From positions 1 through 35,784 of the IMG/VR virus record IMGVR_UViG_3300016476_000957: a stretch of DNA of 35,784 bases, one strand, 5' to 3'. Positions 1,009 through 34,459 of the stretch are shown here, one piece after another. The DNA comes from a virus (taxonomy: Duplodnaviria; Caudoviricetes). The notes below the pieces were generated by a model, which had not been told where the DNA came from, did no database searches, and was given only the letters and a program-made list of their open reading frames with translations. How positions within the stretch are numbered: the stretch's first letter is position 1; the number at the start of each line of letters is the position of its first letter. A program made the position numbers and the translations under genes.

Positions 1009-1183
1009 GTCAAAGGTTAATGCAGCTGGAAATTATACTAAACCTAGTATGAGGAAAAGTTTGTTTAACAAAATTAAAGCTGGTTCAAAAGGAGGAGATC
1101 CTGGTGAATGGTCAGCTAGAAAAGCTCAAATGCTTGCTAAAGAATACAAAGCTAATGGCGGTGGCTACAAAACCAAAAAATAA
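989..1183 (+). CDS. Small basic protein, N-terminal module of a DUF5872-associated protein
   Basis: Motif NYTKPxMRxxLFxxIKAGSKGGxPGEWSARKAQMLAKEYKxxGGGY. Confidence 0.75.
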   Translation: MVVKKSKSKVNAAGNYTKPSMRKSLFNKIKAGSKGGDPGEWSARKAQMLAKEYKANGGGYKTKK

Positions 1184-1419
1184 TGGCAACTAAAAAATCA
1201 ACAACAGCAAAAAAGACGGTGAGCAGAAAATCCTCACCTTCTGTTATTTCTGGACCTAGTAATTCAGAAATGAGAAAATGGGAAATTGAATCTGCAATGA
1301 GTACTTTACAAAGAGCAGTAGAGATTCAAAAAGATGCTAAGCTTATGGCAGATGTCAAAAGAATGGCAGCAGAAAAAGTAAAAGAACTTAACAGTATTGC
1401 AGCTGGTAAAATAAAGTAA
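1183..1419 (+). CDS. Small basic hypothetical protein
   Basis: 78 aa, TAATG-coupled on both sides, Lys/Ser/Thr-rich N-terminus followed by a helical segment. Confidence 0.75.
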   Translation: MATKKSTTAKKTVSRKSSPSVISGPSNSEMRKWEIESAMSTLQRAVEIQKDAKLMADVKRMAAEKVKELNSIAAGKIK

Positions 1420-32286: not shown

Positions 32287-32854
32287 ATAAATCTTTTAGC
32301 TTTTCTTTTTCTACAACCTCTTTCAAGGTTTCAGAATACTTTTTTCCTGTGGAAGCATATGAAGCATCTAATGCATCATAATAATCTTGCTCAGAATCAA
32401 GTTTACTCAAATACCGGCATTGATAGAAAGCATAGTCATATACACTTTCTTGCCAATTATTATAGTATGCATGATTAAGTTGTGTTCCTTTAGCAGTTCT
32501 AATTCTTCTGTTGGCCAACTTCATCCCAAATAAGTTATGATTCTCTTTAAATACAAGGGAAGTCCAGTGACCAGTTTCTACAATAGATTGTGCTAATACA
32601 ATGTGAGGATATTTAATATCCAACTCTTTAATCATATCTACTAAATCATTTTTAGAGAAGGGTTGGTTTTCATCTCTTAATACATGAATGCCACCTTCTA
32701 ACTCAATAACTTGTGCTTCTGCAATATTTTTTCCTACTACAATACCACCTAACAGTGTAGATGCTACAATAATAAAACAAATACTTGCAAATACTATCAT
32801 TTCCCTGTAGATAGGTTCAAACAATAGCTTTTGTTTGTTGTACTTATAAAACAT
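32273..32854 (-). CDS. GH73/glucosaminidase-like peptidoglycan hydrolase with N-terminal TM anchor
   Basis: VLAQSIVETG (catalytic Glu), NHNLFGMK, WQESVYDY, YAS...Y; TM MIVFASICFIIVASTLLGGIVVG. Confidence 0.8.
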   Translation of the reverse strand: MFYKYNKQKLLFEPIYREMIVFASICFIIVASTLLGGIVVGKNIAEAQVIELEGGIHVLRDENQPFSKNDLVDMIKELDIKYPHIVLAQSIVETGHWTSLVFKENHNLFGMKLANRRIRTAKGTQLNHAYYNNWQESVYDYAFYQCRYLSKLDSEQDYYDALDASYASTGKKYSETLKEVVEKEKLKDLFDDN

Positions 32855-32870
32855 AATTATTAGGTTTTAG

Positions 32871-32893
32871 GCTTATAACAGAATATTATAAGC
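32871..32893. other. Intergenic hairpin
   Basis: GCTTATAA-N7-TTATAAGC, a perfect 8-bp stem. Confidence 0.45.
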
Positions 32894-32907
32894 AATGAGA
32901 CTTATAA

Positions 32908-33113
32908 AAGAATAAGAAACTCTCTTGCATGCTAACCATGCTTTTAGATTTGATTGGACATAGTTTACTGTCCACCTGTTGTAGTGCACTACAGAGCAGG
33001 GTCCATCACAGTTCACTTTGGGTCATGTAACTCATTTGGGTAGCTAATCCCAAGAGCCAAAGTTTCTTTCAACGGTGCTAATCCGTCCTCTGTAAGAGAG
33101 TTTTCTTATTCTT
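32908..33113 (-). ncRNA. Putative ~206-nt multibranched structured RNA (unassigned)
   Basis: A ~22-bp closing stem, AAGAATAAGAAAACTCTCTTACA / TGCAAGAGAGTTTCTTATTCTT, encloses four hairpins. No long ORF; starts 2 nt after tRNA-Leu. Confidence 0.7.
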
Positions 33114-33115
33114 AG

Positions 33116-33200
33116 TAGCCGGGATGGGATTTGAACCCACACGGGTATTACTACCCAAGGGATTTTAAGTCCCTCATGTCTACCGTTCCATCACCCAGCT
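33116..33200 (-). tRNA. tRNA-Leu(UAA)
   Basis: Acceptor AGCTGGG/CCCGGCT, anticodon AGGGA-CT-TAA-AA-TCCCT, long variable arm GGGTA-GTAA-TACCC, T-arm GTGGGTTCAAATCCCAT. Confidence 0.93.
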
Positions 33201-33420
33201 AAATTTCCCCACCTTGAGATTACAGGTGAGTAGTTATTTCGGTTTTTTGTTCTGTTCCAAAAACCTGTGAGGCATCCCTCATGAAAACAGTCAACACTAC
33301 TGGGAGGAGTTGTGCGGTTCTCCTTTATCCCACGAAGTCTCACTCTGGCCGTAGACTTTCTGCCAACCTATTTTTAAATGAGTCTTAGGTCAAAGACTGC
33401 TGAGCATCTCTCACTCATTG
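33201..33420 (-). ncRNA. Putative ~220-nt structured RNA with a pseudoknot (unassigned)
   Basis: GC-enriched spacer between two tRNAs, almost fully tiled by hairpins; H-type pseudoknot candidate at 33364-33398. Confidence 0.6.
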
Positions 33421-33492
33421 TTGCGGGTGTGGGAGTTGAACCCACTACCATATGATTATGAGTCATATATGCATCCGTTACACCTACCCGCT
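33421..33492 (-). tRNA. tRNA with CAU anticodon (Met/fMet/Ile2), atypical
   Basis: Acceptor GCGGGT/ACCCGC with an A1-A72 mismatch, anticodon TATGA-CT-CAT-AA-TCATA, T-arm GTGGGTTCAACTCCCAC; A at position 8. Confidence 0.8.
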
Positions 33493-33496
33493 ATAT

Positions 33497-33620
33497 TGCT
33501 TGTCTTTCCAAGCTGTCACGATTTTGCTAGTGTCAGACAATTGTTTTGCCTCTCATTACCTCACTAGTTTTGGGGAGTGTCTACCTGATTACCCACATCC
33601 ATTCCGCACCTGCAGGGGAA
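33497..33620 (-). ncRNA. Possible structured leader RNA
   Basis: CTAGTG/CACTAG stem and a 3' hairpin GCTTG-GAAAGA-CAAGC; non-coding and GC-enriched. Confidence 0.35.
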
Positions 33621-33627
33621 AATATCA

Positions 33628-34068
33628 TTAATAGATTAAACAAAGTTTATCTTCAACTTCAAAAATTTCTTCAGCAGTTAAACCTTCACAATAAAATCTA
33701 CCAAATTTAAACTTAAGCTTAATCTGACTATAAGAAAAGCCGGGTTTTTTAATAAATCCTTGAAACTTTTCATCTAACCAAATAATAAATAAAGGATTAG
33801 ATACAGCTAAGCCATAATGACCTTCTTCAAGATAGTCTTTATACTTGTTGTTAAAGTCTTCAACAGTCATAGTATTATTACGGAGTTTATCCTCCATATC
33901 TAAACTTTGATCAGGACTGTACAATTTAGAACATTTACCACAAATATGAGCTTCACCATCTTCAGACCATGTATTAACATATTCACCCTCTTTTATAAAG
34001 GGTTTGCATGTATCACAACTACATGCATTATGAGTAAAGCAATTGGGACAAATAAAACTTCCTTTCAT
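33628..34068 (-). CDS. Two-domain hypothetical protein with a Cys-rich Zn-binding N-terminus
   Basis: CPNCFTHNACSCDTC...CGKC, followed by a domain with YLEEGHYGL and QIKLKF. Confidence 0.75.
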   Translation of the reverse strand: MKGSFICPNCFTHNACSCDTCKPFIKEGEYVNTWSEDGEAHICGKCSKLYSPDQSLDMEDKLRNNTMTVEDFNNKYKDYLEEGHYGLAVSNPLFIIWLDEKFQGFIKKPGFSYSQIKLKFKFGRFYCEGLTAEEIFEVEDKLCLIY

Positions 34069-34082
34069 AGTTAAAAATTTTG

Positions 34083-34156
34083 TGATCCCACCTGGATTTG
34101 AACCAGGAACCTACAGCTTAGAAGGCTGTTGCTCTATCCAGTTGAGCTATGAGACC
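34083..34156 (-). tRNA. tRNA-Arg(UCU)
   Basis: Acceptor GGTCTCA/TGGGATC, D-arm TAGCTCAACTGGATAGAGC, anticodon ACAGC-CT-TCT-AA-GCTGT, T-arm CCTGGTTCAAATCCAGG. Confidence 0.95.
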
Positions 34157-34165
34157 AATCTTTTG

Positions 34166-34459
34166 TTAATCTTCCAGATCTCTCAATATTTTTTTTAATG
34201 CGGTAGTTACAAGCTCTCTCTTGTATTCTTCAAAAGATTCTATCTTATTCATTATATATTGTGTTGCTACAAATATAAGTTCTGAATAGCTAAGTTCATT
34301 TGCAATTTTTTCAGCAATATGACTTGGTTTAGAGCCATCACCTTTAATAACATCTAAAGTAAGAGTTGACAACTTTGTTGTAATCTCATCAAGATGCTTT
34401 TCAGAAATACCTAAAGCCTCAGCAAGGCTATTTTTATCATGATTGAATTCCATTTTCAT
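34166..34459 (-). CDS. Hypothetical protein
   Basis: 97-aa helical ORF. Confidence 0.75.
   Translation of the reverse strand: MKMEFNHDKNSLAEALGISEKHLDEITTKLSTLTLDVIKGDGSKPSHIAEKIANELSYSELIFVATQYIMNKIESFEEYKRELVTTALKKILRDLED

What the first reader, a model, noticed from the sequence alone, without database searches (positions are those of the whole stretch)
32908..33113. Unassigned ~206-nt multibranched RNA with a long closing stem and repeated GGAUUAGC loops
Seen on the minus strand: a ~22-bp terminal helix encloses four arms. These are ACGG-ATTAGCA-CCGT; ACTTTGG/CCAAAGT extended by CTC/GAG and TTGGG-ATTAGCTA-CCCAA; CCTG/CAGG extended by TGTAG-TGCA-CTACA; and TGGACA-GTAAACTA-TGTCCA. Two loops carry the same GGATTAGC, and a related GGTTAGC lies in the 3' joining strand. 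The single non-identical position between the arms (besides a 1-nt bulge) gives a G-U pair on the minus strand. I cannot assign it to tRNA, tmRNA, RNase P, 6S or a small ribozyme. Inference: a novel phage ncRNA, possibly a multivalent protein sponge (for example against an anti-phage protein) or a ribozyme.
Basis: partly seen in the sequence, partly recalled or inferred. Interest (0 to 1): 0.75.

Follow-up and report, generated by a model that had tools for sequence, protein, structure and literature searches.

The report
Self-kissing full-length freshwater-1 phage RNA
This is a real, conserved ~200-base folded RNA gene that an uncultured phage carries right behind a tRNA gene; a third of it is already catalogued as the function-unknown 'freshwater-1' motif, and two of its hairpin tips stay self-complementary as they mutate, so copies of the RNA likely stick to each other, possibly as a protein-free scaffold or decoy during infection.

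Summary
The structure is real but not unassigned. Rfam freshwater-1 (RF02979) matches 62 of its 206 nt (83.3 bits, cut-off 72). I found 160 distinct full-length members (93 at <90% identity), all on phage or metagenome contigs. 66 of the 93 start directly behind a called tRNA. In a structure-blind alignment 47 of 55 proposed pairs change on both sides.

Its strand argument is reversed, and it missed three helices.

The conserved signal is self-complementarity. One tip is a perfect 6-nt palindrome in 157 of 159 members (eight different hexamers). At a second tip, two adjacent bases switch together between GC and AU (91 of 91). Published cryo-EM work ties this signature to kissing between chains in OLE and GOLLD.

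Best reading: a processed, non-catalytic RNA that self-associates; its role in infection is inferred only. An RNase P-like tRNA-elbow module was tested and rejected. This scan already reported the same full-length family on at least five other windows. Two further unannotated conserved elements flank the neighbouring tRNAs.

The parts
32908..33113 (-). Full-length freshwater-1 RNA gene, 206 nt here because of a long terminal helix; family median about 193 nt
   Evidence: model R1 190.7 bits (the window was in the training set)
32949..33010 (-). Part covered by Rfam freshwater-1 (RF02979): P4/P4b and P5
   Evidence: 83.3 bits, cut-off 72, model 1-62 of 62
33094..33113 (-). P1 5' strand of the terminal helix (19 bp + 1 bulge); sequence free to vary in the family
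   Evidence: 61 different 8-mers in 93 members, median 11 bp; 7 of 7 aligned pairs change on both sides
32908..32926 (-). P1 3' strand
33090..33093 (-). ACAG, 5' strand of helix Pa, pairing with CUGU 33011-33008 and closing the 5' three-way junction
   Evidence: G-C 48, U-A 42, U-G 1 of 91 at one pair; A-U 88, U-A 2 at the next
33071..33087 (-). P2 hairpin with 7-nt loop AUUAGCA; loop G33078 and C33077 likely dock on C33022 and G33024
   Evidence: 4 stem pairs covary; C-G 89 and U-A 2 of 91, G-C 91 of 91; the U-A cases may be one event
33012..33066 (-). P3 arm with extension and internal loops (P3, P3b, P3c)
   Evidence: 8 of 9 pairs change on both sides
33041..33046 (-). P3c tip UAGCUA, second self-complementary site
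   Evidence: adjacent central bases GC 65, AU 26 of 91; about 17-19 parsimony changes; imperfect UCGCAA in 52 of 155
33002..33004 (-). GGA, 5' strand of helix P7, pairing with UCU 32948-32946 and closing P4 and P5
   Evidence: 3 of 3 pairs change on both sides, 97% of cells paired
32975..33000 (-). P4 arm with a conserved asymmetric internal loop (GCUCU*ANC) resembling a C-loop
   Evidence: 87 of 91 keep GCUCU*ANC; the C-loop consensus is recalled, not from a call
32980..32993 (-). P4b tip: 14-nt perfect palindrome centred on GUGCAC (32989-32984), main self-pairing site
   Evidence: perfect hexamer palindrome in 157 of 159 parsed members, 8 different hexamers; predicted intermolecular duplex in the two-copy fold
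32955..32974 (-). P5 hairpin, 6 bp, 8-nt purine-rich loop (two classes, GUAAACUA and GGAACAAA)
   Evidence: 6 of 6 pairs change on both sides; loop classes
32927..32941 (-).
   Evidence: absent from a subgroup in alignment A1; a hairpin below -2.5 kcal/mol in this stretch in 78 of 93 (loose test)
33115..33200 (-). tRNA-Leu(UAA) directly upstream, same strand, no encoded CCA; likely co-transcribed

Best explanation
The stretch is the full-length gene of the freshwater-1 RNA, a conserved ~190-205-nt phage RNA that is likely cut out of a tRNA precursor, folds into two compact domains on a terminal helix, and is predicted to pair with copies of itself through two self-complementary hairpin tips. 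Shown: the gene, its strand, its helices, its place behind tRNAs and the palindrome-keeping substitutions. Inferred step 1: co-transcription with tRNAs and release by host tRNA-processing nucleases, with the terminal helix protecting the ends. Inferred step 2: symmetric kissing or strand exchange at the P4b tip (about 0.85) and at the P3c tip (about 0.6), giving a dimer or a larger RNA-only oligomer. Inferred step 3, the weakest (about 0.3): the oligomer is a stable scaffold or decoy that presents the conserved purine-rich junctions and the P5 loop to a host factor during infection. It is unlikely to be a catalyst or an antisense RNA.
For: Covariation on a structure-blind MAFFT alignment of 91 sequences: 94% of cells paired, 47 of 55 pairs change on both sides, slid controls 32-43% paired. 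P4b tip: perfect hexamer palindrome in 157 of 159, eight sequences, about 29 parsimony changes of the hexamer and 12 of its central two bases. P3c tip: adjacent bases GC or AU in 91 of 91. Control arms P2 and P5 have a palindrome of 6 nt or more in 2 of 92 each, against 91 of 92 for P4b. The two tips vary independently, so they do not pair with each other in one molecule. Kretsch et al. (PMC12286853, passages) use adjacent-base covariation as support for cryo-EM-observed symmetric kisses in OLE and GOLLD, both linked GOLLD half-shells using two such kisses. manA and EGFOA RNAs under 200 nt form cages, trimers and strand-exchanged dimers (bioRxiv 10.64898/2026.07.01.735769, parts 1-2 of 5). 66 of 93 members begin within 35 nt behind a called tRNA of 12 anticodon types, 55 of the 90 with enough downstream sequence are followed by one, and 0 of 333 nearby tRNAs lie on the other strand. 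In 51 of 73 cases P1 starts within 3 nt of the discriminator base. Contigs of relatives cover the element in 7 of 8 RNA libraries laid.
Against: No experiment shows oligomers, processing or a partner. The P3c tip is thermodynamically weak (median self-duplex -2.3 kcal/mol, no better than the P2 loop) and is imperfect (UCGCAA) in 52 of 155 members. Parsimony counts come from a tree built on the short RNA itself and may be inflated. The expression evidence is assembled contigs, mostly 85-99% alike, from runs chosen because they held part of the region. They give no strand, ends or level, DNA could contribute, and run X1 did not cover the element. Bases fixed by my search patterns look more conserved than they may be. 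The host is not established, and nothing points to a specific bound protein.
Confidence: 0.6

Rival explanations
1. A monomeric structured RNA (protein-binding or ligand-binding) whose palindromic tips are just unusually tight hairpin ends or a double-helix mimic.
For: Conserved purine-rich junction strands and a likely loop-to-junction contact could form a pocket or protein site in a monomer. The P3c tip is weak as a dimer interface.
Against: Adjacent bases cannot pair within one chain, yet they stay complementary through all four Watson-Crick combinations at P4b and through GC/AU switches at P3c. There is no fixed downstream gene, as a riboswitch would need.
Confidence: 0.15
2. A trans-acting small RNA that pairs with host or phage mRNA (Rfam's generic 'sRNA' label).
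For: Stand-alone gene with no fixed neighbour; Rfam type Gene; sRNA.
Against: Nearly all conserved sequence is tied up in helices or short junction strands. The exposed tips change sequence while keeping self-complementarity, which a fixed target would not allow.
Confidence: 0.07
3. A new ribozyme, for example one that frees the upstream tRNA's 3' end, as tRNA-associated theta ribozymes do (recalled, not from a call).
For: It abuts tRNA 3' ends, most without encoded CCA (63 of 73), and has a complex conserved core.
Against: No ribozyme family at E<=10. The tRNA junction is separated from the core by a helix of free sequence and variable length (8-21 nt to the first conserved base), so no conserved bases surround a cleavage site.
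Confidence: 0.07
4. One reading: a multivalent protein sponge built on repeated GGAUUAGC loops.
For: Two exact copies and one near copy in this window.
Against: Two copies in only 3 of 93 homologues. The second copy is one state of a palindromic tip; the third is a minor variant of the loop of an optional hairpin, usually GUGAG.
Confidence: 0.04
5. A tRNA-elbow binder with an RNase P-like interdigitated double T-loop (ACAGAAG ... UGAAAG), or a detached RNase P piece. This was my own early idea.
For: UGNNA in 91 of 93; ACAGA(A/G) resembles RNase P J11/12 in host-type genomes; lives among tRNAs.
Against: The defining AGNNA half (PMC3664808, part 2 of 5) is found in 0 of 93. ACAG is base-paired, with G-C/U-A covariation. 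RNase P catalytic signatures: GGAAnGUC in 1 of 93 against 28 of 28 RNase P RNAs; GGCUUA-type in 9 of 93 against 27 of 28.
Confidence: 0.03
6. A DNA-level element (miniature transposon with terminal inverted repeats, operator array or cruciform), or palindromes made neutrally by template switching.
For: Long inverted ends, positions next to different tRNAs, equal folding of both strands.
Against: The terminal arms share no sequence across members. G·U outnumbers A·C 45 to 5 on the tRNA strand. The orientation is that of the nearby tRNAs. The other hairpins are not palindromic.
Confidence: 0.03

Closest known systems
freshwater-1 RNA motif, Rfam RF02979 (attribution to Weinberg et al. 2017, PMC5737381, is recalled and repeated in earlier scan notes; the main text has no 'freshwater' and its supplement could not be read)
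   Same: Direct family match over the whole 62-position model, above the curated cut-off.
   Different: The Rfam model holds only P4/P4b and P5. The conserved gene is about three times longer, with a terminal helix, a 5' three-way junction and an optional last hairpin. Only 5 of 20 loci scanned (most carrying a full-length member) reach the Rfam cut-off.
GOLLD, ROOL and OLE RNAs (PMC12286853)
   Same: GOLLD and ROOL are phage or prophage RNAs near tRNA islands. Symmetric kissing loops with adjacent-base covariation are described for OLE and GOLLD, and GOLLD half-shells are joined by two self-kissing loops per chain.
   Different: They are several hundred nucleotides long, with no model match here at E<=10. 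Oligomers are shown for them and only predicted here.
manA (RF01745) and EGFOA (RF02955) RNAs (bioRxiv 10.64898/2026.07.01.735769)
   Same: Under 200 nt, multibranched, function unknown; manA occurs in cyanophages; they form RNA-only cages, trimers and strand-exchanged dimers.
   Different: No model match. The manA contacts described are between different loops (such as L5-L7'), whereas here each tip is predicted to pair with the same tip of another copy.
Retroviral dimerisation loops (HIV-1 DIS; MMLV H3)
   Same: A 6-nt palindromic kiss, or as little as two G-C pairs, links two identical RNAs (PMC8570644, passages). That GUGCAC is an HIV-1 DIS variant is recalled.
   Different: An analogy of mechanism only; no homology, and this is a stand-alone phage gene rather than a genome signal.
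RNase P specificity domain (interdigitated double T-loop)
   Same: Superficial likeness of two strands flanking a hairpin.
   Different: AGNNA signature absent, first strand base-paired, no catalytic domain.

Membership tests
freshwater-1 (RF02979) | Covariance-model score at or above the gathering cut-off over the full model | tested here: met
   83.3 bits against 72, positions 1-62
freshwater-1 (RF02979) | Two adjacent hairpins, the first with an internal loop | tested here: met
   P4/P4b and P5 pair and covary
freshwater-1 (RF02979) | Occurrence in aquatic metagenomes (implied by the name; original description not seen) | tested here: inconclusive
   contigs of relatives in freshwater, riverine and estuary RNA runs; the window's own source is not given
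RNA-only self-assembling RNAs (OLE, GOLLD, ROOL, manA, EGFOA) as a working class | Self-complementary loops with covariation of adjacent bases | tested here: met
   criterion as used in PMC12286853
RNA-only self-assembling RNAs (OLE, GOLLD, ROOL, manA, EGFOA) as a working class | Protein-free oligomer seen at cellular concentrations | not testable with these tools
   needs mass photometry or cryo-EM
GOLLD, ROOL, OLE, manA, EGFOA as sequence families | Match to the family's covariance model | tested here: not met
   none among matches with E<=10 over 32800-34250
RNase P RNA / double T-loop module | AGNNA ... UGNNA pair of unpaired T-loops | tested here: not met
   AGNNA 0 of 93, UGNNA 91 of 93; first strand paired
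RNase P RNA / double T-loop module | P4 catalytic signatures | tested here: not met
   1 of 93 and 9 of 93, against 28 of 28 and 27 of 28 in RNase P RNAs (patterns recalled)
tRNA or tmRNA | Cloverleaf or tRNA-like domain with tag frame | tested here: not met
   ARAGORN and Rfam call nothing within 32908-33113
6S RNA | Model match; long duplex with one central bubble | tested here: not met
   no match; covariation shows nested multiway junctions
Known self-cleaving ribozymes | Match to a catalogued catalytic core | tested here: not met
Known self-cleaving ribozymes | Protein-free cleavage | not testable with these tools
   bench assay needed

The most novel reading that the evidence does not exclude
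With two independent two-fold interfaces per chain, this ~190-nt RNA builds a closed RNA-only cage or a filament in infected cells. The assembly tethers or shelters the phage tRNAs it is transcribed with, or soaks up a host tRNA-directed defence nuclease. That would make it one of the smallest tRNA-array RNA assemblies and a tractable model for what GOLLD- and ROOL-type RNAs do.
Probability: 0.2. Interest if true: 0.8.

Novelty: new member of a known kind. Interest (0 to 1): 0.5.

Why it matters
Phage tRNA arrays carry several structured RNAs of unknown function, and the few solved so far turned out to be protein-free multimers. This family is short, has at least 160 natural variants with palindrome-swapping tips, and gives a sharp, cheap test of self-assembly. 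The Rfam entry is a one-third fragment, so anyone working from it would study an RNA lacking its terminal helix and 5' domain. I found no paper on the full-length RNA, but two relevant supplements were not fully readable. Within this scan the family has been reported before.

Tried and rejected
Cultured phages: no meaningful blastn match among 50,697 GenBank phage records with the window RNA or a divergent member (two chance hits at E 8). The DNA polymerase has only distant (<60%, best rows about 32-34%) relatives, so no laboratory model phage or host was found.

Host: TAnnTTTG (recalled Bacteroidota promoter element) is not clearly enriched (27 on minus, 23 on plus, shuffle mean 20.8).

Cellular copies: one exact-pattern scan of 185,579 GTDB genomes gave 5 loci, 2 of them true members. 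The Chitinophagaceae-bin contig carries terminase, portal and major head genes, so it is phage DNA. The Micavibrio-bin contig is 2.9 kb and was not checked for phage genes. Model R1 found no other copy in 140 further genomes of that phylum; that means not found in those searched, not absent.

Obligate partnership with neighbouring elements: R1 hit 6 of 80 loci of the 33201-33421 element (up to 5 kb flanks; two hits are the same sequence) and 1 of 18 loci of the 33493-33630 element. They travel independently.

Cis-kissing between the two tips: rejected because the tips vary independently.

The swapped terminal helix in the two-copy fold is a by-product of the strand exchange at P4 and is not evidence. 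Hairpin-versus-duplex energy had no control arm and was not used.

The coding flanks had little or no cover in RNA runs; parts without cover prove nothing.

Rows dropped: 2 of 93 non-redundant members (L287, L304, wrong ends) were left out of alignment A1. 1 of 93 failed the parse. In one search, 5 of 160 (P3c) and 1 of 160 (P4b) were unparsed and two P3c tips were mis-parsed.

The supplement of PMC5737381 was unreadable, and 3 of 9 supplementary files of PMC10690425 were not searched. Either may describe parts of this RNA.

Full report
Context. The window is a complete 35,784-nt virus record. It carries a phage replication module (DNA polymerase, primase, DnaB-like helicase, thymidylate synthase) and an endolysin-like gene just downstream of the finding. 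Four tRNA genes lie on the minus strand. The finding starts 1-2 nt behind tRNA-Leu(UAA), which has no encoded CCA. No ORF of 60 aa or more overlaps it.

Observation. The arms are as described and the fold beats 200 of 200 shuffles on both strands. Several details are wrong. The terminal helix is 19 bp plus a bulge. The mismatch cited as G·U is A·C on the minus strand and G·U on the plus strand. The third motif lies in a fifth hairpin. Rfam freshwater-1 matches 32949-33010 at 83.3 bits against a cut-off of 72; nothing else but tRNA is significant nearby.

Family. This gave 160 distinct full-length members including the window, 93 of them under 90% identity (mean 61%, minimum 36%), with median length about 193 nt. 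The two true members among 5 GTDB pattern hits sit in bins. One of those contigs is plainly phage; the other is 2.9 kb and was not checked. No cultured phage has it. 66 of 93 members begin within 35 nt behind a called tRNA of 12 anticodon types. 55 of the 90 with enough sequence are followed by one, and none of 333 nearby tRNAs is on the other strand. There is no fixed protein neighbour.

Structure. ACAG pairs with CUGU (G-C 48, U-A 42 at one position) and closes a 5' three-way junction of P2 and P3. GGA pairs with UCY and closes P4 and P5. With an optional P6 these sit on the terminal helix P1. For this structure 94% of cells pair and 47 of 55 pairs change on both sides, against 32-43% paired for slid controls. 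The structure was partly derived from these sequences, so the controls flatter it. G·U outnumbers A·C 45 to 5, fixing the strand. The P2 loop probably docks at the base of P3 (G-C 91 of 91; C-G 89 and U-A 2). P4 holds a conserved asymmetric loop (87 of 91) that resembles a C-loop. The consensus is recalled; PMC8570644 (passages) says C-loops twist a stem so that its loop can make tertiary contacts. Bases used in my search patterns are conserved partly by selection; the two tips below were in no pattern.

Two GGATTAGC copies occur in 3 of 93 members, so the repeat is incidental and the sponge-by-repeats idea fails. No ribozyme model matches, and the tRNA junction is held away from the core by a helix of free sequence and length.

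My first alternative also failed. ACAGAAG and UGAAAG resemble the RNase P double T-loop that binds the tRNA elbow. The published signature is AGNNA ... UGNNA (PMC3664808, part 2 of 5; PMC4810234, passages). AGNNA is present in 0 of 93, the strand is base-paired, and RNase P catalytic motifs are missing, compared with 28 of 30 RNase P loci fetched.

What is conserved instead. The P4b tip is a perfect hexamer palindrome in 157 of 159 parsed members, in eight sequences with all four central dinucleotides, about 29 changes on a tree. Control arms reach a 6-nt palindrome in 2 of 92 each. At the P3c tip two neighbouring bases are GC in 65 and AU in 26 of 91, with about 17-19 changes and one single-mismatch case among 155. 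Neighbouring bases cannot pair in one chain. PMC12286853 (passages) makes the same argument for OLE and GOLLD kisses seen by cryo-EM. The two tips vary independently, so each would pair with its twin in another molecule; a two-copy fold exchanges the whole P4 arm. Against this, the P3c tip is weak (median -2.3 kcal/mol) and imperfect in a third of members, and the tree is built from the short RNA itself. RNAs under 200 nt do form cages and strand-exchanged dimers (bioRxiv 10.64898/2026.07.01.735769, parts 1-2 of 5; review PMC12990946, passages).

Expression. Ten runs held small shares of the region and eight were laid. Contigs of relatives cover the element in 7 of 8 (6 of 7 studies), including pieces of 107 and 89 nt without differences. 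These are assembled contigs from runs picked for holding the region. They are consistent with transcription but give no strand, ends or level.

How it most likely works. Shown: a conserved folded RNA gene in tRNA arrays, with palindrome-keeping tips. Inferred: release from the tRNA precursor by host nucleases; self-association at P4b (about 0.85) and P3c (about 0.6); and, least certain (about 0.3), a scaffold or decoy role toward a host factor. The host is not established.

Novelty. It is a member of a catalogued, function-unknown family whose model covers one third of the gene. Searches for 'freshwater-1' found no paper, and related searches found no account of the full-length RNA (the last seen as a listing only). 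PMC10690425 (passages) lists IMG/VR candidates up to 151 nt; six of its supplements held none of my motifs and three were not searched. The PMC5737381 supplement was unreadable. The scan itself has noted this full-length family and its self-complementary tips on other genomes. I had written the palindrome reading down before seeing those notes and tested it here; their agreement is not independent evidence. Verdict: real, partly known, worth a bench test; interest 0.5.

Noticed in passing
window 33201-33421 (-): A second conserved non-coding element of about 215 nt between tRNA-Met and tRNA-Leu, with no Rfam match. About 160 viral stretches match its 3' pattern; 64 distinct sequences were extracted. 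It starts right behind a tRNA. A 5' GAGAU is complementary to AUCUC in the 3' hairpin loop, suggesting a kiss or pseudoknot. RNA contigs cover parts of it. It usually occurs without freshwater-1 nearby. The scan's index returned no note describing it. It may be more novel than the finding itself.
   Followed up: partly
window 33493-33630 (-): A third conserved element of about 130 nt upstream of tRNA-Met, no Rfam match. A pattern for its 3' end hit 19 viral loci, most sharing the whole element; RNA contigs cover it.
   Followed up: partly
run X2 contig, joint 33201 to 33496; run X8 contig, joint 33143 to 33499: Relatives lack or replace the tRNA-Met plus 33201-33421 block, so the array's RNA genes are gained and lost as modules.
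   Followed up: no
window 32858-32884 (-): A 10-bp AU-rich hairpin between the RNA's 3' end and the endolysin-like gene; no homologue among the fetched loci.
   Followed up: partly
L120 about 1160-1388 (-): A member whose P3c arm carries an insertion of roughly 60 nt while the rest of the fold is kept.
   Followed up: no
L355 and L419: Apparent internally deleted members: L355 keeps P1 and the 5' domain only, L419 keeps P1 and the 3' domain only. These are natural domain deletions or assembly artefacts.
   Followed up: no
L328 398-868 (-): A tmRNA match directly beside a freshwater-1 member.
   Followed up: no
L084, L120, L220 and others, just upstream of the RNA: tRNA-like elements that ARAGORN does not call stand where a tRNA usually does, so tRNA adjacency is probably under-counted.
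   Followed up: no
G001:C26 (L475, L476): A 45-kb phage contig (terminase, portal, major head, tail fibres) binned into a Chitinophagaceae genome carries the RNA; a weak host hint at best.
   Followed up: yes
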